This document shows, piece by piece, positions 23 through 49,055 of a stretch of 64,000 bases of DNA (positions within the stretch are counted from its first letter, which is position 1; every line of letters begins with the position of its first letter). The stretch covers positions 35,736 through 99,735 of the forward strand of contig JAEESS010000001.1 in the NCBI GenBank assembly GCA_016286445.1, given 5' to 3'. The translations under genes were made by a program, and so were the position numbers. A model generated the notes under the pieces. It did no database searches. It was not told where the DNA came from and saw only the letters and a list, made by a program, of their open reading frames with translations. Source of the DNA: Bacillota bacterium (GTDB taxonomy: Bacteria; Bacillota; Clostridia; Christensenellales; CAG-138).

Positions 23-99
23 CTGGGTGTAGCGCAGTTTGGTAGCGTGCTTGAATGGGGTTCAAGAGGCCGAGAGTTCAAATCTCTCCACCCAGACCA
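23..99 (+). tRNA. tRNA-Pro(GGG)
   Basis: Cloverleaf: acceptor CTGGGTG/CACCCAG, anticodon stem CTTGA/TCAAG with loop ATGGGGT (anticodon GGG), T-arm GAGAG-TTCAAAT-CTCTC, encoded CCA. Confidence 0.96.
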
Positions 100-6609: not shown

Positions 6610-8667
6610 ATGAAACTCTACACCGCGAATGAGATTCGCAACATCGGCGTCTTCGGACACGGCGGCGAGGGCAAAACGACCTTGACGGAGGCCATGCTTT
6701 ACAATGCAGGTCTCGTTGATCGTTTCCCGAACAATGCACCCACGACGGACTTTGACCCGGAAGAGGTCAAGCGTTCCATCTCCATCAACATGGCGCTTGC
6801 GCCCTTGGAATGGAAGAACACCAAGATCAACCTGATCGACGCACCGGGCTTCTTTGATTTTTACGGCGAAGTGGCAGCGGCAATGGCGCTTTGCGATGCG
6901 GCGCTCGTCGTGATCAGCGCGGTATCAGGTCCTGCAGTCGGCGCGGAAAAGACCATGGCAATGTGCAAAGAACAGCACAAAGCCCGCATGATGGTCATCA
7001 ACCAGATGGACCGTGACAATGCAAACTTTGAAAAGACCATGCAGGCCGTGAACGAGAAGTTCGGCGTGAACGTCGTTCCGATCCAGCTTCCGATCATGGA
7101 AGGCGGCGTGTTCAAGGGCTATGTCGATATCGTCAACATGAATGCAAAAATGTTTGACGGCAAGGGCGAAAAGGAAGTCGCGATCCCCGGCAATCTCGAA
7201 GCGGAAGCACAGGAGCTCTATGAGAAGCTCACCGAGGCGGCAGCCGAAGCCGACGAGGATCTCATGATGGAATACCTGGAGACGATGGAGCTTTCCCGCG
7301 AACAGATCCTCATGGGTCTTTCAAAGGGTGTTCTGGACGGCGACATCACGCCCGTCTGCTGCACGTCCGCGCTCAACAATATCGGCGTTACCACGCTGTT
7401 GGAGTACATTCTCCATTATCTGCCCACGGCTGCGGATGCGAAGCTTCCGAAGGCGTATAAGAACGGCGAAGAGATCGAGCTTACGAGAGACGGCAAGATG
7501 GTTTGCCACATCTACAAGACGGTCAACGACCAGTTCGGCAAGTACAGCATCGTGAAGGTCCATCGCGGCACGCTGGACGGCGGCGTTGCGCTTTACAATG
7601 CGAGCCAGGAAAAGAACGAAAAGCCCACGGCGCCCGTGATGCTGCGCGGCAAAAAGTCCATTGCGGTCGATAAGCTGAACGCTGGCGATATCGGCGCGAT
7701 CCCGAAGCTGCAGATCTCCAACACGAACGATACGCTCTGCGACGCGTCCGACCCGGTCACGATCGAGAAGATCGTCTTCCCGGAGCCGTGCATCAGCCTC
7801 GCGGTCACCGCAAAGAAGCAGGGTGAAGAGGACAAGGTCATCGGCGGTCTCAACAAGCTCCTCGAAGAGGACCCGACCATTGCGATCGAAAAGAACGCGG
7901 AAACCGGCGACGTCCTACTGAAGGGTCTCGGCGAGATGCACCTCGATGTTACCTGCGCAAAGATTCGCAACAAGAGCAACGTCGAAGCACAGCTCTCCGA
8001 TCCGCGCATTCCGTACCGTGAGACGATCCGTGCAACGGCGGAAGCGGAAGGCAAACACAAGAAGCAGTCCGGCGGCAGCGGTCAGTTCGGTGTTGTTCAG
8101 ATGCGGTTCGAGCCGGCGCCCGAAGGCGTTGATTTCGAGTTTGTCAATGCGATCGTCGGCGGCGTTGTTCCGAAGGAATACATCCCGGCAGTCGAAAAGG
8201 GGCTGCGCGAAGCCATGCTTCACGGCGTGCTTGCGGGCTATCCGATGGTCGGCATCAAAGCGACGCTGTATGACGGCAAGTATCACCCCGTCGATTCCAA
8301 GGAAGTCGCGTTCAAGAGCGCAGCAAGACTGTCCTATAAGGCAGCCTGCGTCAAGGCGAATCCCGCGCTGACCGAGCCGATCTACACCTACTACATCTGG
8401 GTCCCGAACGATAACGTCGGCGACATCATGGGCGACCTCAGCCGTCGCCGCGGCAGAATGCTCGGCATGACGCCTTCTAACGGCGGCACCGAGATCGTCG
8501 CGGAAGCGCCGCTTTCCGAGATGTTCAAGTATGCGACCGACCTGCGCTCCATGACGCAGGCGCGCGGTTCTTTCCGCAGCGAGTTCACCCGCTATGAGGA
8601 TGTTCCCACCGAGCAGGCGAAGAAGATCATCGAGCAGGCAAAGCGCGAGGACGAGGACGAAGAATAA
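6610..8667 (+). CDS. Elongation factor G paralog (EF-G2-like), outside the str operon
   Basis: GHGGEGKTT, DAPGFFDF, GLGEMHLD, HKKQSGGSGQFG, YHPVDS, LRSMTQARG; non-canonical G2 (RSISI) and G4 (NQMD). Confidence 0.92.
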   Translation: MKLYTANEIRNIGVFGHGGEGKTTLTEAMLYNAGLVDRFPNNAPTTDFDPEEVKRSISINMALAPLEWKNTKINLIDAPGFFDFYGEVAAAMALCDAALVVISAVSGPAVGAEKTMAMCKEQHKARMMVINQMDRDNANFEKTMQAVNEKFGVNVVPIQLPIMEGGVFKGYVDIVNMNAKMFDGKGEKEVAIPGNLEAEAQELYEKLTEAAAEADEDLMMEYLETMELSREQILMGLSKGVLDGDITPVCCTSALNNIGVTTLLEYILHYLPTAADAKLPKAYKNGEEIELTRDGKMVCHIYKTVNDQFGKYSIVKVHRGTLDGGVALYNASQEKNEKPTAPVMLRGKKSIAVDKLNAGDIGAIPKLQISNTNDTLCDASDPVTIEKIVFPEPCISLAVTAKKQGEEDKVIGGLNKLLEEDPTIAIEKNAETGDVLLKGLGEMHLDVTCAKIRNKSNVEAQLSDPRIPYRETIRATAEAEGKHKKQSGGSGQFGVVQMRFEPAPEGVDFEFVNAIVGGVVPKEYIPAVEKGLREAMLHGVLAGYPMVGIKATLYDGKYHPVDSKEVAFKSAARLSYKAACVKANPALTEPIYTYYIWVPNDNVGDIMGDLSRRRGRMLGMTPSNGGTEIVAEAPLSEMFKYATDLRSMTQARGSFRSEFTRYEDVPTEQAKKIIEQAKREDEDEE

Positions 8668-8712: not shown

Positions 8713-9234
8713 ATGGAAAAGCAGTTTACTTGCAGCAAAAATGCGCTGAAGAAAGCGCACATCACCTGTCTGTTCTATTCAATCGGGCTGCCCTTCATTG
8801 CCGTACTGTTTGTTCTTCCGTTTTTCTGGGGCGAACAGAAGAGGTTTTCATGGCATATCATCATCTATGTTTTGCTCGCGGCACTTTTCATTTATCAGGG
8901 ATACCGTTCCTTTCGCGTACTGCGTTCATTGCATCAGTCGCTGTGCCGGACAGACGGTGTAACTGTTTCGGGGATCCATACAAAAGATCCGTTTCAAAAA
9001 GGCATTCCGTTTCAGATCGACAAAACAGAAATTACCAACGTGAAAGAAACGATTGCGGCAACAGTCAAAAAAGAGGACATGGACTATCATCCGCGGACGC
9101 TGCACCGTGCGCCGTTTGAATCGCCGGAGCTTCGCGGATACCGGTCAACCATCATAGAGACCGGGAACGCTTCTTATTTGCTTTTCGGGATCGAACTGAC
9201 AGAAGAATTCAAAAATGCTCTGAAACCTGAATAA
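8713..9234 (+). CDS. Hypothetical membrane protein (2 TM)
   Basis: 173 aa ORF with two hydrophobic segments; no recognisable motif, no clear RBS. Confidence 0.6.
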   Translation: MEKQFTCSKNALKKAHITCLFYSIGLPFIAVLFVLPFFWGEQKRFSWHIIIYVLLAALFIYQGYRSFRVLRSLHQSLCRTDGVTVSGIHTKDPFQKGIPFQIDKTEITNVKETIAATVKKEDMDYHPRTLHRAPFESPELRGYRSTIIETGNASYLLFGIELTEEFKNALKPE

Positions 9235-9242
9235 TACAAAAG

Positions 9243-9265
9243 AAACCGGCGGAAACCGCCGGTTA
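9243..9265. repeat. Left copy of 23 bp direct repeat (terminator hairpin; putative target-site duplication)
   Basis: AAACCGGCGGAAACCGCCGGTTA identical to 11053-11075. Confidence 0.95.
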
Positions 9266-9453
9266 CAGCGTGTCAATAAAACTTTTGACACGCTGAGCAG
9301 GCTGTTGGGAAGGAGGGCAGAAGAGCTATTCTCTAAAGGGTGGTTTTAAACCGCTACTACAGAATAGCTGCGAGATAATCTTTCTGCGGCAAATGAATGA
9401 TAGCAGCTATCGGAAAGGAGCTTTTTTCTCGGCAAGTAAAAAACAAAAAAACG

Positions 9454-9553
9454 TGTCATTCTGAGCTGCAAGGCGAAGAATCTTTGAACGCAAGATCGAA
9501 TACATCATAGTTTCACGCTGAGATCCTTCCTCGCTTCGCTCCTCAGGATGACA
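9454..9553. repeat. REP-like palindromic element (GTCATTCTGAG...CTCAGGATGAC type)
   Basis: TGTCATTCTGAG..GCGAAGAATCT arm and AGATCCTTC..CTCAGGATGACA arm in inverted orientation. Confidence 0.75.
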
Positions 9554-9795
9554 TCCCTTTTTTTCTGGAAGGGCGCACTTACTCACCACCGACACCGTCG
9601 GCGGTGATACTCTCCTGCGTCGGGACGTGCGTACACAACAGCGGTTTCTATTTCCAGTACACAATCAACGGGGTTAGGGTGTCCCCTAAAGCAAAAGCTG
9701 AGGCGGTTCAACCTCGGCTTTCGGCATTTGGAACACAAATGTCTTGCTTGCTGTTCTGTTCGACAAAAAAGTGTATAGCAAAACAAGGTCAATTA

Positions 9796-9824
9796 TTGAA
9801 AAACAAACCATTCTATGATAAGAT
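9796..9824 (+). promoter_or_regulatory. sigma-A promoter with extended -10
   Basis: TTGAAA-17bp-TAAGAT preceded by TGn; predicted +1 about 9831. Confidence 0.75.
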
Positions 9825-9830
9825 AGCAAT

Positions 9831-9998
9831 GCTACACGACTATACTGTCTTTGTTCAGGAAGGTGCGTTTTTGCCTCGGCAAAAACGCAACCTCCTGATT
9901 TGGCATCTATCTTGAATTGAGACAGTCAAAGTTGTGTAGCGACAAGCGGAGTTATGAATTTTTCGGTGTGTAGCTCCCTTGGGGCTACACACTTTTTT
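9831..9998 (+). ncRNA. Structured leader RNA / candidate attenuator or small RNA ending in an intrinsic terminator
   Basis: Nested stems 9831-9841/9930-9940, 9844-9851/9919-9926, 9855-9874/9879-9898; terminator 9966-9977/9981-9992 plus T6; alternative pairing 9948-9956/9969-9977. Confidence 0.6.
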
Positions 9999-10017
9999 AT
10001 TTGGGGAGGAACAGACA

Positions 10018-10686
10018 ATGAAAAAAGCAATTACAATTCTACTATCGCTCCTAATGATGCTTTCCGTTGCCGCTTGTGGTAGAGGTCAATCGGCACCCAA
10101 ACCTATAGCTATAGCAACCGAAGTACCAGCAACAACCGAACCCACGCCTAAGCCAACAACTGAACCCACTCCAATTCCTACCCCTGAACCGTATTGGAGT
10201 ATTGATTACTATCTTGATGACTATGGCGATAAGACAGATGAAGCATATGTAATGGGGAAATTTGATGGCACTTTCAGCAATACTGCGACTACCAATTCAG
10301 ATTTAACCGTTCTGTTTTTTTATAGCCCCAACGAATGCAGTATTCGTCTGCTCGAATACGATTCTATTAAAGCTAATTTCCCAACAGGCAAATATGCTTT
10401 CATTCAGTTTAAGATCGACAATGACGAGTATAAGATTGATATGAACGTCCCTAACTTAGGCGAAGATTTATATTTATATGCTTTACCTAAAGGTATGTTT
10501 ATATCTGCACACGAACTAGAAAAACAACAGAAAAAGCGCGATAAATGTGATGTACTAGTAAATGCACTGAAAGAAGGCAAGCAGATCAAATGCGTTATTA
10601 AAAACGATTATGCAAGCGCTTACTACTTTACTTTAGAAGGAGAAGGATTCAACGACAAGTTAATTACAGCCTTTGAAAAAAACTAG
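10018..10686 (+). CDS. AT-rich hypothetical lipoprotein (cargo of the insertion)
   Basis: GGGGAGGA RBS, MKK signal peptide with LSVAAC lipobox, TEPTP repeats; 19/60 GC in line 10441-10500 versus 33/60 in a host-gene line (1261-1320). Confidence 0.85.
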   Translation: MKKAITILLSLLMMLSVAACGRGQSAPKPIAIATEVPATTEPTPKPTTEPTPIPTPEPYWSIDYYLDDYGDKTDEAYVMGKFDGTFSNTATTNSDLTVLFFYSPNECSIRLLEYDSIKANFPTGKYAFIQFKIDNDEYKIDMNVPNLGEDLYLYALPKGMFISAHELEKQQKKRDKCDVLVNALKEGKQIKCVIKNDYASAYYFTLEGEGFNDKLITAFEKN

Positions 10687-10820
10687 AAATATAGTTTCGA
10701 AACTATGTGTGAATAATCGATCTACTAATTGTTAGAATAATAAAGAGTAATCGACATATGACATCTCCTTAATTAAGGATATTATAATACAGGTATTATA
10801 GAACTCAACTGGAGTATTAC

Positions 10821-10854
10821 AAAAAGCACAGCCGACCAAAGCCGACTGTGCTTT
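10821..10854 (-). terminator. Intrinsic (probably bidirectional) terminator inside the insertion
   Basis: AAAGCACAG...CTGTGCTTT stem with A5/T3 flanks. Confidence 0.7.
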
Positions 10855-11052
10855 GAAAATCCCCCTTGACAAAGTGCCTTTGAATCCATGTTTTCGCGAC
10901 GGAGCTATACTATAGTATGCGACTGAGCGGAAATATGGATAGTTTGCGGAGAGATAATGAAAAGAAAAGGCGCCATATGCGCCTTTTCTTCCGACAAGTA
11001 TTCCTTTATAAATTCTTGCCGCAAACGGTCTGGCCCCTTTTACGACAGTCTG

Positions 11053-11075
11053 AAACCGGCGGAAACCGCCGGTTA
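11053..11075. repeat. Right copy of 23 bp direct repeat; uvrC terminator including its stop codon
   Basis: Identical to 9243-9265; TTA at 11073-11075 is the uvrC TAA. Confidence 0.95.
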
Positions 11076-12893
11076 TTTTTTATCGGGGTGAAAGTATCGA
11101 AAAACAGATTGAGCAGATGCAGTCGTCATTCCTTTCACTGCCGCAAGATCCTCTAAGCTTGCCGCTTTGATCGCATCCGCGGTCAGAAAAGCATCGAACA
11201 ATGCGCGTTTGCGTTTCTCGCCGACGCCTTCGATGCTGTCGAGAATCGAATACAAAGCGCTCTTGCTCCGGAGATTTCGATGATAGGAGATCGCAAACCG
11301 ATGCGCTTCGTCGCGCAGACGTTCAATCAGATGCAGCGGAGCGCTGTTTCTCGGAAGAAGGATCGGGTCGTCTTGTTCAGGAAGATAGATGATCTCGTCG
11401 GATTCGGCGAGCGCACAGATCGGGATGTGCGAAAGATTCAGTTCCGTGAGTACGGAGACGCCGACGGCAAGCTGCGTTTTGCCTCCGTCAAGCACGATCA
11501 GATCGGGGAGCTCTCCGTCTCCGGACAGCCTTCGGGTCAGCACTTCCTGCATGGCGATCAGATCGTCGCCGCCCGCATCGGAACGGATCCGAAAATGCCG
11601 GTATGCGGTTTTATCCGGCTTGCCGTCGCGAAACACAACCATGGACGCGACCGTATTGGTTCCCATCAGGTGGGAATTGTCGAAGCATTCGATACGGGAG
11701 GGGATCTCATCCAAACCGAGAATACCGGAAAGTTCCGCAAGCGCGCCCTCGCCTCGTTCCCATTCGCGTGTACGGATTCGGTCGTTTTTCTCGAGGAGCG
11801 CTTTACAGTTCTGCTTTGCCATATCGGTCAGCTGATGCTTCACGCCGCGCTGCGGCACATTGACGGACACCTTTTTGCGCCTGCGTTCGCAGAGCCATGC
11901 TTCGATCTCCGGCATATCCGTGCACGATTCGGCAAGCAAAACCAGGGGCGGGATCTCGATGCCGTCCTGTCCGTAATACTGGAGAAGGAATGCGTGCAGC
12001 CATTCGGACGGAGCGTCGTCGCCGTCGCCCTCCAGCGGAAATGCATGTGTTCCGATCACCTTGCCGCCGCGTACGAACAGCGCAAAGACCATACGGGCGT
12101 CATTGAGCGAATCGACTGCAAAGACGTCCGCTGCAAGCTCGCTGGCGTTGATCGCGACCTGCTTTTCCCGCAGTGCCGAAACGGCTTTTATTTTATCCCG
12201 CAGCAAAGCAGCCCGTTCAAAATCGAGCGCATCGGAAGCTTCCTGCATTTTTTGCGTCAGATAGGGAATCAGATCGCCGCTCTTGCCGTTCAAAAGCCGG
12301 ATTGCTTCGTTGAGGTACGCATGGTATTCTGCTCGTGTGATCCTGCCGCTGCAGGGCGCGCAGCACTTGCCGACGTGGTGCAGAAGACAGGGACGCTCGC
12401 CACGCGCCTGCATATGTGCGATATTCTTTTTGCAGTGCCGCAGCGGAACCAGATCGTATACAAGCCGAAGCTCCTCCTGCACGGAAGGACCGACGATGTA
12501 CGGTCCGAGATAGGTCGCGCCGTCCGGTTTGACGCGCCGCACGATCTCGATCCGGGGAAAGTCCTGCTTAAGATCGATCCGGAAGTACGGAAAATGCTTA
12601 TCATCCTTCAAAAGGATATTGTACTTCGGCATGAACTCCTTGATGAGATTGCTTTCGAGCGACAGGGCTTCGGTCTCGCTGTGCACCTCGATCGTTTCAA
12701 AATCGGCGATGTGCGAAACCATCGCCCGGACCTTCGGCGAATGGTTTTTGGAAGACTGAAAGTATTGCCGGACACGGTTTTTGAGGATCTTCGCCTTTCC
12801 GACGTAGATCACCGTGCCGGTATCGTCAAGCATTTTATAAACGCCCGGTTTCTCCGGAAGCAGAGCGATTTTGTCTTCCAGTATGCTGTTCAT
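11073..12893 (-). CDS. uvrC: Excinuclease ABC subunit C
   Basis: PGVYKM..IYVGKAKILKNRVRQYF GIY-YIG, LDFERAALLRD, RIECFDNSH, RDEAHRFAI, HhH. Confidence 0.97.
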   Translation of the reverse strand: MNSILEDKIALLPEKPGVYKMLDDTGTVIYVGKAKILKNRVRQYFQSSKNHSPKVRAMVSHIADFETIEVHSETEALSLESNLIKEFMPKYNILLKDDKHFPYFRIDLKQDFPRIEIVRRVKPDGATYLGPYIVGPSVQEELRLVYDLVPLRHCKKNIAHMQARGERPCLLHHVGKCCAPCSGRITRAEYHAYLNEAIRLLNGKSGDLIPYLTQKMQEASDALDFERAALLRDKIKAVSALREKQVAINASELAADVFAVDSLNDARMVFALFVRGGKVIGTHAFPLEGDGDDAPSEWLHAFLLQYYGQDGIEIPPLVLLAESCTDMPEIEAWLCERRRKKVSVNVPQRGVKHQLTDMAKQNCKALLEKNDRIRTREWERGEGALAELSGILGLDEIPSRIECFDNSHLMGTNTVASMVVFRDGKPDKTAYRHFRIRSDAGGDDLIAMQEVLTRRLSGDGELPDLIVLDGGKTQLAVGVSVLTELNLSHIPICALAESDEIIYLPEQDDPILLPRNSAPLHLIERLRDEAHRFAISYHRNLRSKSALYSILDSIEGVGEKRKRALFDAFLTADAIKAASLEDLAAVKGMTTASAQSVFRYFHPDKK

Positions 12894-41505: not shown

Positions 41506-41582
41506 GGGGCTTTAGCGAAGTTGGCTATCGCGCTACACTGGCAGTGTAGAGATCAGGGGTTCGAATCCCCTAAGCTCCACCA
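41506..41582 (+). tRNA. tRNA-Ala(GGC)
   Basis: Acceptor GGGGCTT/AAGCTCC with G3:U70, anticodon loop CTGGCAG, T-arm AGGGG-TTCGAAT-CCCCT, CCA; TATAAT upstream and terminator downstream. Confidence 0.96.
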
Positions 41583-48712: not shown

Positions 48713-49055
48713 TGACGGTGAGCAAGCCGTAAGCCGAGTTCTGTCTAAGGACGATCATCTATCTAGACGATCCGTTGCCGGACCGTTCAAGCGATTATCA
48801 AGAGCGTAGCGGGCAGCTATTGAATGCTCTCATTCCAATCTTGCACCGAGTGGGGTTTACAGAACGGACAAGTCGCCATGCCGTTGGTGAGCTCTTACCT
48901 CGCCTTTCCATCCTTACCCGAAAAACGGGCGGTATCTCTCTGTTGCACTATCCTTGAAGTCGCCTTCACCGGGCGTTACCCGGCACTCTGCCCTGTGGTG
49001 CTCGGACTTTCCTCACCTCAAAATGAGCCGCGATCGTCTGTCTTACTCACCGTCA
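48713..49055 (-). ncRNA. rnpB: RNase P RNA, bacterial type A
   Basis: GAGGAAAGTCCGAGC, AGTGCAACAGAGAG, GGTAAGAGC, ACAGAACTCGGCTTAC conserved motifs; ends pair (TGACGGTGAG/CTCACCGTCA). Confidence 0.96.

What the first reader, a model, noticed from the sequence alone, without database searches (positions are those of the whole stretch)
9796..10020. Riboswitch-like structured leader with terminator/antiterminator switch upstream of the cargo lipoprotein
Seen: promoter TTGAAA-17-TAAGAT puts +1 at about 9831, the first base of an 11 bp stem (GCTACACGACT/AGTTGTGTAGC) that closes a 110 nt nested structure (ACTGTCTT/GAGACAGT; TCAGGAAGGTGCGTTTTTGC-CTCG-GCAAAAACGCAACCTCCTGA). A strong terminator (GTGTGTAGCTCC/GGGGCTACACAC-T6) follows, 19 nt before the ATG. 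Its 5' arm can instead pair with GGAGTTATG (9948-9956) or with the transcript's 5' GCTACAC; the GCTACAC/GTGTAGC word occurs four times. Inference: conditional attenuation by a ligand, protein or antisense RNA, or a stand-alone ~165 nt sRNA. I cannot assign it to a known family.
Basis: partly seen in the sequence, partly recalled or inferred. Interest (0 to 1): 0.75.

Follow-up and report, generated by a model that had tools for sequence, protein, structure and literature searches.

The report
Unclassified terminator-switch leader RNA family
This is a real, conserved leader RNA found in many uncultured gut Clostridia that most likely decides, through competing hairpins, whether transcription stops before a varied set of mostly surface and small accessory protein genes; what triggers it is unknown.

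Summary
Window 9796-10020 has a sigma-70-type promoter, an RNA starting about 9830/9831 that folds into a long hairpin (z = -7.8), a strong intrinsic terminator, then the RBS and ATG of a lipoprotein gene.

It is one member of a large family that matches nothing in Rfam 15. A strict pattern found at least 119 stretches in species-representative genomes, mostly uncultured gut and rumen Clostridia. A covariance model hit 13 of 151 genomes of the family and 14 of 151 of the order, often 2-4 copies per genome. The own genome has a second copy.

Covariation supports P1, P1b, P2 and the terminator. Two further conserved pairings make it a switch. The linker (CAAnCGGAG) pairs with the terminator apex, acting as antiterminator. 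The same linker (GGAGnnnUGCGUUUUU) pairs with the 3' arm of the apical hairpin, acting as anti-antiterminator.

Downstream genes are very diverse: BspA-type LRR proteins, lipoproteins, zinc-ribbon membrane proteins, AMP-ligases and tiny proteins. No regulator gene recurs nearby, and few unpaired bases are conserved.

The trigger is unknown. The anti-antiterminator helix cannot form in cis while the long hairpin stands, so the hairpin must be opened or leader RNAs must pair in trans.

Earlier notes of this scan describe what seems to be the same family in other genomes.

The parts
9796..9824 (+). Promoter: -35 TTGAAA (9796-9801), 17-nt spacer, TG-extended -10 TAAGAT (9819-9824)
   Evidence: Consensus scan. 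In the family, 105 of 109 copies with enough upstream DNA have a -10 TAnnnT placed 3-9 nt before the RNA core; 90 also have a -35 and 86 a TG extension.
9831..9841 (+). P1 5' strand (GCUACACGACU), at or within 1 nt of the inferred first transcribed base
   Evidence: Folds with 9930-9940. In A6 the 8 P1 pairs are 98% paired, and the fourth pair is G-C 29, U-A 20, C-G 15, A-U 4. The transcription start is inferred from promoter spacing, not mapped.
9844..9851 (+). P1a 5' strand (ACUGUCUU), pairs with 9919-9926
   Evidence: This part of the helix varies in sequence and keeps pairing among 7 relatives; across all helices 19 of 54 predicted pairs have double changes.
9855..9898 (+). Apical hairpin P2 (arms 9855-9874 and 9879-9898, loop CUCG)
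   Evidence: P2 core pairs are 82.8% paired, and 6 of 10 pairs show changes on both sides.
9881..9895 (+). Segment A (AAAAACGCAACCUCC): 3' arm of P2, also complementary to the linker
   Evidence: A:L has 15 pairs, 89.7% paired against 37-63% in slid controls; 9 pairs have double changes against 4.3 in shuffles, 0 of 500. In this copy the linker reads GAA where the family has GCG, so its A:L helix is weakened.
9919..9940 (+). 3' strands of P1a (9919-9926) and P1 (9930-9940)
9943..9964 (+). Linker L (CAAGCGGAGUUAUGAAUUUUUC). Positions 9943-9951 are the antiterminator strand; 9948-9963 are the part complementary to segment A
   Evidence: Read.
9966..9998 (+). Intrinsic terminator (arms 9966-9977 and 9981-9992, loop CUU, U6 at 9993-9998). 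Its apex 9974-9981 (CUCCCUUG) is the 3' partner of the antiterminator
   Evidence: The terminator helix is 96.5% paired, and 8 of 9 pairs have double changes.
10003..10686 (+). RBS GGGGAGG (10003-10009) and the controlled gene (ATG 10018, stop included at 10686): a 222-aa protein with a lipoprotein-type signal peptide (MKKAITILLSLLMMLSVAAC)
   Evidence: No Pfam family. The lipoprotein reading comes from the sequence by eye.
9242..9265 (.). First copy of a perfect 24-nt direct repeat (a terminator hairpin). The second copy lies at 11052-11075. Together they bracket the 1.8-kb segment that holds the leader and its gene
   Evidence: A contig of run X3 joins 9307 to 10882 and so lacks the leader and gene (one contig, likeness threshold 90, a hint only).
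11052..11075 (.). Second copy of the 24-nt direct repeat

Best explanation
Window 9796-10017 is the promoter and 5' leader of the lipoprotein gene at 10018-10686. It is a member of a widespread, so far unclassified family of cis-acting transcription-attenuation leaders of gut Clostridia.

Shown by sequence comparison:
- The RNA starts at the base of a long rod-like hairpin (P1, P1a/P1b, apical P2).
- A conserved linker L follows, then an intrinsic terminator T, then at once the RBS of the controlled gene.
- L has two conserved alternative partners. Its 5' part (CAAnCGGAGnn) pairs with the apex of T (distal 5' arm, loop and first bases of the 3' arm). That pairing is an antiterminator (AT).
- Its 3' part (GGAGnnnUGCGUUUUU) pairs with segment A, the 3' arm of P2 plus a CUCC. 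That pairing is an anti-antiterminator.

Inferred logic, a four-segment scheme like the trp or pyr attenuators:
- With P2 closed, L is free. It captures the terminator apex as soon as the apex is made, and transcription reads through.
- With L held by A, the terminator forms and transcription stops.

The A:L helix cannot form within one molecule while the rod stands. The input must therefore be something that opens or prevents the rod (a protein or an RNA), or an A segment supplied in trans by another leader RNA. The input is not identified.

In this copy A:L is weakened and P2 is unusually long, so this copy may lean towards the AT/T decision alone.
For: FAMILY
- blastn hits in 7 of 61 genomes, own included.
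- Model R1 hits 13 of 151 genomes of the family in 6 of 50 genera, with up to 4 copies per genome and a second copy in the own genome at G000:C77:9736-9888.
- R1 hits 14 of 151 genomes of the order in 11 of 96 genera.
All 80 loci fetched have an R1 hit at the pattern site, and 7 loci hold a second copy.

CIS-REGULATORY ANATOMY
- 105 of 109 copies have a -10 box 3-9 nt before the core.
- 87 of 110 distinct copies have an RBS-preceded same-strand ORF starting within 100 nt after the core.

HELICES
- P1, P1b, P2 and T together: 88.8% of cells paired against 29-62% in slid controls. 25 of 33 pairs have double changes, and 0 of 500 shuffles reach this.
- A:L: 89.7% paired against 37-63% slid; 9 of 15 pairs have double changes, 0 of 500 shuffles.
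- Copies not selected by my pattern carry compensated A:L variants, read from the table: GAAG with CUUC (L033), GAAU with GUUC (L035), AUGUAUUUUU with AAAAAUACAU (L082_1498), and the variant in L025.

DUPLEX ENERGIES (n = 104 distinct copies)
- A:L: cognate -16.6, non-cognate -15.0, shuffled -5.7 kcal/mol; 0 of 2000 permutations as low.
- AT: cognate -13.3, non-cognate -11.1, shuffled -6.7 kcal/mol; 0 of 2000.
- GUUUG-loop terminators go with CAAAC, CAAAU or CAAGC linkers; UUCG-loop terminators go with CAAUC.

FOLDING SURVEY (n = 105)
- Transcripts cut just before the terminator's 3' arm is complete form the AT (6 or more pairs) in 100 of 105.
- At full length the MFE holds T in 63 and AT in 42, so the two are nearly balanced.
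Against: - No transcript data. No RNA run holds the stretch, so the start, the terminated product and any regulation are all inferred.
- Column-by-column, the AT pairs are conserved (77.6% paired against 17-48% slid) but show no covariation above shuffles (364 of 500 shuffles reach the observed percentage). The permutation signal for AT may rest on two sub-classes that are related by descent.
- In 50 of the 70 rows of A6 (those from the scan loci, most though not all chosen by the pattern) my search pattern fixed GGAG, GCGTTTTT and TGTG..GC. Conservation of those columns is partly by selection.
- A:L appears in the MFE of only 1 of 105 copies. A nested fold that contains A:L costs a median of +20.5 kcal/mol relative to the rod. 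The proposed OFF state therefore needs an unidentified helper, or pairing in trans.
- In this window's own copy the MFE already has the terminator formed, and A:L is weak. This copy might terminate or read through constitutively.
- Related sequences are not independent, so the shuffle tests overstate significance.
Confidence: 0.7

Rival explanations
1. Leader RNAs act on each other in trans. The rigid rod presents segment A at its tip, partly in a bulge or loop. Accumulated terminated leaders (about 165 nt) pair through A with the linker of nascent transcripts, from the same or sister copies. This blocks the antiterminator and forces termination. The result is RNA-level negative feedback, like countertranscript-driven attenuation of plasmids pT181 and pIP501, except that the 'antisense' sequence lies within the sense RNA itself.
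For: - A:L is conserved and compensated, yet it is topologically shut out in cis while the rod stands. Only about 7 nt link the base of a rod of about 25-30 bp to L, and the nested alternative costs a median of +20.5 kcal/mol.
- Parts of A are exposed: CUCC sits in a bulge in the small class, and the A-run sits in the apical loop in the large class.
- Copies are often multiple per genome or tandem.
- Non-cognate A:L duplexes are nearly as stable as cognate ones, -15.0 against -16.6 kcal/mol.
- The terminated product would have a 5' hairpin and a 3' terminator, the build of a stable small RNA.
Against: - Nothing tested it directly.
- Within one genome (G161) the copies carry different matched toeholds: GGAG/CUCC, GAAG/CUUC, GAAU/GUUC. 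That fits self-pairing, or strictly self-directed feedback, as well as it fits trans action.
- The steric argument is my own estimate, not a model.
- No precedent known to me for such self-targeting leaders.
Confidence: 0.15
2. A classical riboswitch: the rod with its internal loops and the P2 junction binds a small molecule, for example a signalling nucleotide given the surface-protein regulon, and this shifts the balance between P2 and A:L or between AT and T.
For: - It has the typical riboswitch layout: a structured domain, then an antiterminator and a terminator, then the RBS.
- It occurs in several copies and in tandem, in front of unrelated genes.
- No regulator gene recurs next to it: the 72 upstream neighbours scanned are all unrelated.
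- The surface-protein bias resembles the regulons of c-di-GMP riboswitches (from my own knowledge).
Against: - Very few conserved unpaired nucleotides. Apart from AUA in one internal loop, a G closing the P2 loop and the CUCC-U-rich bulge, the conserved bases are explained by the competing helices.
- The shape is a rod, not a multi-helix junction.
- The expression platform (linker and terminator) is conserved in sequence across families, which is unusual for riboswitches.
- The controlled genes include no transporter or biosynthesis theme that would point to a ligand.
- No match to any Rfam riboswitch.
Confidence: 0.1
3. A stand-alone small RNA gene of about 165 nt whose downstream genes are incidental, or a constitutive promoter, 5' stabiliser and leaky terminator cassette that merely sets a low expression level for acquired genes, with no switching.
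For: - It has its own promoter and a strong terminator.
- In 63 of 105 copies the full-length MFE holds the terminator.
- Some copies have no nearby ORF: 5 of 110 have none called and 18 have one more than 100 nt away. Some copies are tandem with no gene between them.
- The units sit as single-gene insertions between housekeeping genes.
Against: - 87 of 110 copies are followed within 100 nt by an RBS and a same-strand ORF.
- The AT and A:L complementarities are conserved well beyond slid and shuffled controls. A mere stabiliser or a plain small RNA would not need them.
- AT forms in 100 of 105 truncated transcripts.
Confidence: 0.05

Closest known systems
Multi-hairpin transcription attenuators of Firmicutes and enterobacteria (B. 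subtilis pyr leaders with PyrR; trp-type attenuators with segments 1:2, 2:3, 3:4)
   Same: It has an intrinsic terminator just before the gene and an antiterminator that overlaps the terminator. It also has a further upstream helix that competes for the antiterminator strand, acting as an anti-antiterminator. The decision is made during transcription.
   Different: It has no leader peptide: the ATG at 9829 is not conserved, and the start-like triplet after GGAG lies only 0-2 nt from it. No PyrR-type binding loop was recognised and no Rfam PyrR hit was found. No regulator gene lies nearby. The anti-antiterminator partner sits at the tip of a long rod that starts at +1. The controlled genes are a diverse accessory set, not one pathway.
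Riboswitch and T-box expression platforms (terminator/antiterminator), Rfam RF00230 and others
   Same: The layout is a structured 5' domain, a switching linker and terminator, then the RBS. It occurs in several copies and in tandem in front of different genes.
   Different: No Rfam family matches. I recognised no T-box sequence or specifier features. There are few conserved unpaired bases. The linker and terminator are conserved in sequence. No metabolic theme appears among the genes.
Countertranscript-driven attenuation of plasmid replication genes (pT181 repC, pIP501/pAMbeta1 repR); from my own knowledge
   Same: An RNA that pairs with a segment of the nascent leader keeps the 'pre-emptor' (antiterminator) from forming, so that a terminator forms. 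Recognition starts at exposed loop or bulge bases on a long, bulged stem.
   Different: In those systems a separate antisense RNA is made from the opposite strand. Here the complementary segment lies in the same sense RNA, no antisense promoter was sought or found, and the units are chromosomal accessory genes.

Membership tests
Any Rfam 15 family (4227 models) | Covariance-model match at or near the gathering score | tested here: not met
   At E<=10 on window 9000-11000 the only matches overlapping the leader are mir-5350 (27 bits, cut-off 90) on the P2 palindrome and CRISPR-DR34 (17.8 bits, cut-off 35) on the terminator. 15 homologous loci at E<=1 gave nothing at the motif. The whole window at gathering score gave only RNase P and 2 tRNAs.
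T-box leader (RF00230) | Stem I with specifier loop and K-turn, the conserved T-box sequence in the antiterminator bulge, and aminoacyl-tRNA-related downstream genes | tested here: not met
   No RF00230 hit. The downstream genes are surface or unknown proteins, not aminoacyl-tRNA synthetase or amino-acid genes. Motif features were judged by eye only.
Classical riboswitch (small-molecule sensing) | Direct, selective ligand binding by a conserved aptamer pocket | not testable with these tools
   Only indirect evidence exists: few conserved unpaired bases and no ligand-suggesting gene theme.
Terminator/antiterminator transcription attenuator (functional kind) | An intrinsic terminator directly upstream of the controlled ORF | tested here: met
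   A hairpin plus U-run was found in 105 of the 106 distinct copies that passed the segment-A anchor step; the one miss is cut by a contig end. 4 further copies of the 110 lacked the A anchor and were not tested. The helix is 96.5% paired, and 8 of 9 pairs have double changes.
Terminator/antiterminator transcription attenuator (functional kind) | A conserved alternative helix that is mutually exclusive with the terminator | tested here: met
   The L 5' part pairs with the terminator apex: 77.6% paired against 17-48% slid. Cognate duplexes are -13.3 against -6.7 kcal/mol shuffled, 0 of 2000 permutations. The helix is present in the MFE of 100 of 105 truncated transcripts. Column covariation alone is not significant.
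Terminator/antiterminator transcription attenuator (functional kind) | Condition-dependent termination or read-through | not testable with these tools
   No RNA holder was listed and only contigs could be laid.
Leader-peptide (ribosome-mediated) attenuator | A conserved short ORF with an RBS in the leader | tested here: not met
   The ATG at 9829 is not conserved in relatives. The NUG after GGAG lies 0-2 nt from it, and no conserved frame was seen (by eye).

The most novel reading that the evidence does not exclude
The leaders form a self-referential RNA circuit. The long rod exists to hold the anti-linker segment A away from the RNA's own linker, so a nascent leader can be switched to termination only by the A segment of other, already finished leader RNAs. 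This would be concentration-dependent, sense-RNA feedback that caps the expression of mobile surface and accessory gene cassettes in gut Clostridia. It would be a new mode of attenuation control, with no protein or metabolite sensor.
Probability: 0.15. Interest if true: 0.85.

Novelty: new variant of a known kind. Interest (0 to 1): 0.66.

Why it matters
Oscillospiraceae, Acutalibacteraceae, Christensenellaceae and their relatives are abundant, mostly uncultured gut bacteria about whose gene control little is known. A single conserved leader, present in several copies per genome, stands in front of BspA-type LRR proteins, S-layer-homology proteins, lipoproteins and many tiny unknown proteins. 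It would define a regulon for the cell surface and accessory genome of these organisms.

The RNA has three conserved, mutually exclusive helices and matches no curated family. It is a ready-made test case for finding a new effector (protein, RNA or ligand) of transcription attenuation.

The units also look like single-gene cassettes that differ between strains. The leader may therefore travel with, or be recruited to, newly acquired genes.

Tried and rejected
- Repeat or MITE: rejected. The 231-nt stretch is single-copy by blastn in the own genome, and G-U pairs in the helices fit an RNA of this strand.
- Leader peptide: rejected.
P1-5':T-5' is only slightly better for cognates (-6.9 against -6.2 kcal/mol). 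P1-3':T-3' shows no cognate effect (1759 of 2000 permutations as low).
- Recurrent neighbouring regulator. I scanned 72 of 91 upstream ORFs; the 19 left out were shorter than about 130 aa or duplicates. They are unrelated, mostly housekeeping genes.
- Extra A-like or L-like sites in the own genome. Counts were near the reversed-pattern control: 23 against 13, and 11 against 7.
- Expression data. No RNA holder was listed. Only contigs could be laid, and they show no starts or ends.
- Literature. Four full-text searches listed no paper on this motif. In PMC8040213 I read only passages. A search of its supplements for three motif strings found nothing, but files 7 and 8 were not searched, so the family may be among its 3161 unnamed candidates.
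- K-turn or loop-E reading of the P1/P1a internal loop: not supported by eye.
- Tools not used: the metagenome-contig scan, protein structure tools and the complex predictor.
Full report
OBSERVATION.
- Promoter: TTGAAA (9796-9801), 17 nt, TG-extended TAAGAT (9819-9824).
- P1: an 11-bp helix, 9831-9841 with 9930-9940.
- P1a: 9844-9851 with 9919-9926.
- P2: a 20-bp apical hairpin, 9855-9874 with 9879-9898.
- Terminator: 9966-9992 plus U6 at 9993-9998.
- The ATG is at 10018, 19 nt after the U-run.

The RNA 9831-10020 folds at -80.3 kcal/mol, z = -7.8 against 200 dinucleotide shuffles. GCTACAC or its complement occurs four times within 9831-9990 and 8 times in the whole window, where 2.76 are expected.

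SURROUNDINGS.
- The neighbours are housekeeping genes: an EF-G paralogue at 6610-8667, an unknown 173-aa ORF at 8713-9234, and UvrC at 11073-12893 on the minus strand.
- The controlled ORF, 10018-10686, has no Pfam family. It begins with a lipoprotein-type signal peptide (read by eye).
- A perfect 24-nt direct repeat, itself a terminator hairpin, lies at 9242-9265 and at 11052-11075 and brackets the segment.
- One metagenome contig joins 9307 to 10882 and so lacks the leader and gene (a single contig, a hint only).
- 'Cargo' is therefore fair in the sense of a strain-variable single-gene insertion. No mobility gene is present.

NOT A KNOWN FAMILY. Rfam 15 gave nothing relevant in three searches: E<=10 on 9000-11000, E<=1 on 15 homologous loci, and gathering score on the whole window.

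A LARGE FAMILY.
- blastn found relatives in 7 of 61 genomes, own included.
- Their alignment showed a conserved promoter, P1, P2, linker and terminator in front of different genes.
- RNAalifold on 7 sequences gave 54 pairs, 19 of them with compensatory changes.
- Model R1 hit 13 of 151 genomes of the family in 6 of 50 genera. There were up to 4 copies per genome and a second copy in the own genome, G000:C77:9736-9888.
- R1 hit 14 of 151 genomes of the order in 11 of 96 genera. These are lower bounds, because the filters were strict and the model was built from 7 close sequences.
The records are almost all titled as uncultured gut or rumen Clostridia: Oscillospiraceae, Acutalibacteraceae, Christensenellaceae, Ruminococcus, Eubacteriales.
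- All 80 loci fetched carry an R1 hit at the site, and 7 carry a second copy close by.
- There are two size classes, with cores of about 130 nt and about 180 nt. The larger has an extra hairpin.
- Of 110 distinct copies, 105 of the 109 with enough upstream DNA have a -10 box 3-9 nt before the core (90 with a -35, 86 TG-extended). 87 of 110 are followed within 100 nt by an RBS and a same-strand ORF.

HELICES. The counts use A6, a MAFFT alignment of 70 small-class RNAs. 20 come from genome searches and 50 from the scan loci, most of those chosen by the pattern and a few being second copies in the same loci.
- P1, P1b, P2 and the terminator: 88.8% of cells paired against 29-62% when partners are slid. 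25 of 33 pairs have changes on both sides, and no shuffle of 500 reaches this.
- The fourth pair of P1 alone is G-C 29, U-A 20, C-G 15, A-U 4.

TWO FURTHER PAIRINGS.

(1) Segment A and the linker.
- Segment A (AAAAACGCAnnCUCC, window 9881-9895) is the 3' arm of P2. It is also complementary to the linker's GGAGnnnUGCGUUUUU.
- 15 pairs are 89.7% paired against 37-63% slid. 9 pairs have double changes against 4.3 in shuffles, 0 of 500.
- Copies not chosen by my pattern show compensated variants: GAAG/CUUC in L033, GAAU/GUUC in L035, AUGUAUUUUU/AAAAAUACAU in L082_1498, and the variant in L025 (table).
- P2's 5' arm and the linker can differ from each other while both match A (L025). The complementarity is therefore not just a repeated motif.

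(2) The linker and the terminator apex.
- The linker's 5' part (CAAnCGGAGnn, window 9943-9951) is complementary to the terminator apex (window 9974-9981).
- Terminators with a GUUUG loop go with CAAAC, CAAAU or CAAGC linkers. Those with a UUCG loop go with CAAUC.

Duplex energies on 104 distinct copies:
- A:L: cognate -16.6, non-cognate -15.0, shuffled -5.7 kcal/mol.
- AT: cognate -13.3, non-cognate -11.1, shuffled -6.7 kcal/mol.
- For both, 0 of 2000 permutations reach the cognate mean.

Against the AT reading, the column count shows 77.6% paired (17-48% slid) but no covariation above shuffles (364 of 500). In addition, kinship inflates all of these tests.

HOW IT LIKELY WORKS.
- Folding 105 copies: transcripts that end just before the terminator's 3' arm is complete form the antiterminator in 100 of 105.
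- At full length the MFE holds the terminator in 63 and the antiterminator in 42, so the two are nearly balanced.
- By default a free linker should therefore capture the apex first and allow read-through. Termination needs the linker to be held, and A is the conserved candidate for holding it.
- Yet A:L is in the MFE of only 1 of 105 copies. A nested fold containing it costs a median of +20.5 kcal/mol (quartiles 16.8-23.4) relative to the rod.
- As a pseudoknot it would need about 7 nt to span a rod of about 25-30 bp (my estimate).
- Hence either a factor opens the rod or keeps it from forming, or A is supplied in trans by another leader RNA.
- The evidence does not decide between these. I rank a yet unknown protein or RNA effector acting on a cis attenuator first, trans action of leader RNAs second, and a small-molecule riboswitch third. 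The riboswitch is ranked low because few unpaired bases are conserved, the shape is a rod, and the expression platform is conserved in sequence.
- In the window's own copy the linker reads GAA for GCG, which weakens A:L, and P2 is extra long. The MFE has the terminator formed.

REGULON.
- I scanned 91 of 105 downstream ORFs. The 14 left out were duplicates from tandem leaders, near-identical proteins, ORFs far away, or ORFs under 50 aa.
- 49 of the 91 have no Pfam family.
- The rest include BspA-type LRR_5 (10), LRR_4 (2), AMP-binding (4), acyltransferase (2), SLH and Listeria-Bacteroides repeats (3), zinc ribbons (3), HTH/RHH/MazE-type small proteins, Rho_N (2, one of them below the curated cut-off), radical SAM, M23, SH3, ricin-type lectin and others.
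- 55 of 105 have an N-terminal hydrophobic run, and 29 are complete ORFs of 100 aa or fewer.
- The upstream neighbours (72 scanned) are unrelated genes.

- The pairing of the terminator's 5' arm with the transcript's 5' end is weak family-wide: -6.9 against -6.2 kcal/mol for non-cognates. Its mirror, P1-3' with T-3', shows no cognate effect.

EARLIER NOTES AND PRINT.
- Notes of this scan describe, in six other genomes, an unclassified promoter, rod hairpin and terminator-switch leader of gut Clostridia in front of surface or small accessory genes. It is very likely the same family.
- I could not compare sequences: a look-up by sequence found none. These are unchecked AI notes, not independent support.
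- Four literature searches listed nothing on the motif. A catalogue of 3161 candidate RNAs from human microbiomes (PMC8040213; passages read, supplements partly searched) may or may not contain it.

VERDICT. This is a real, conserved, multi-copy attenuator leader of a family absent from Rfam. The mechanism is resolved to the level of three competing helices, and the input signal is unknown.

Noticed in passing
window 9242-9265 and 11052-11075: A perfect 24-nt direct repeat (GAAACCGGCGGAAACCGCCGGTTA, a terminator hairpin) brackets a 1.8-kb non-core segment that holds the leader and lipoprotein gene. A contig of run X3 joins 9307 to 10882, with 12 other letters between, and so lacks the unit.
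   Followed up: partly
window 9558-9750: A non-coding element of about 190 nt just upstream of the leader has further copies in the own genome: C18:12544-12731 at 89%, plus C48 and C56. Metagenome contigs pile up at 9518-9591 with many loose ends. No Rfam match. Its nature is unknown.
   Followed up: partly
G000:C77:9736-9888 (locus L032 1501-1653): A second, divergent copy of the leader lies in the same genome, in front of an AMP-binding (adenylate-forming) enzyme gene. The same gene family follows the leader in L008, L015 and L070.
   Followed up: partly
loci L101, L110, L049, L099 (ORFs after the leader): A recurrent family of helical proteins of about 55-70 aa with no Pfam match (for example MENELYKKMYLHLFNAVTDAI...) is among the commonest genes behind the leader.
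   Followed up: no
loci L115, L082, L110, L054, L068, L067, L047: Two leaders lie within a few hundred bases of each other. In L115 the second promoter starts right after the first terminator, with no gene between.
   Followed up: partly
loci L039, L052, L054, L060 and others (large class): The 180-nt class carries an extra hairpin (GGGGAUAUUAUACCC) followed by a U-run inside the 5' half of the rod. It looks like a weak internal terminator or pause site.
   Followed up: no
window 48715-49049 (-), 23-96 (+), 41506-41579 (+): RNase P RNA (class A) and two tRNA genes.
   Followed up: no
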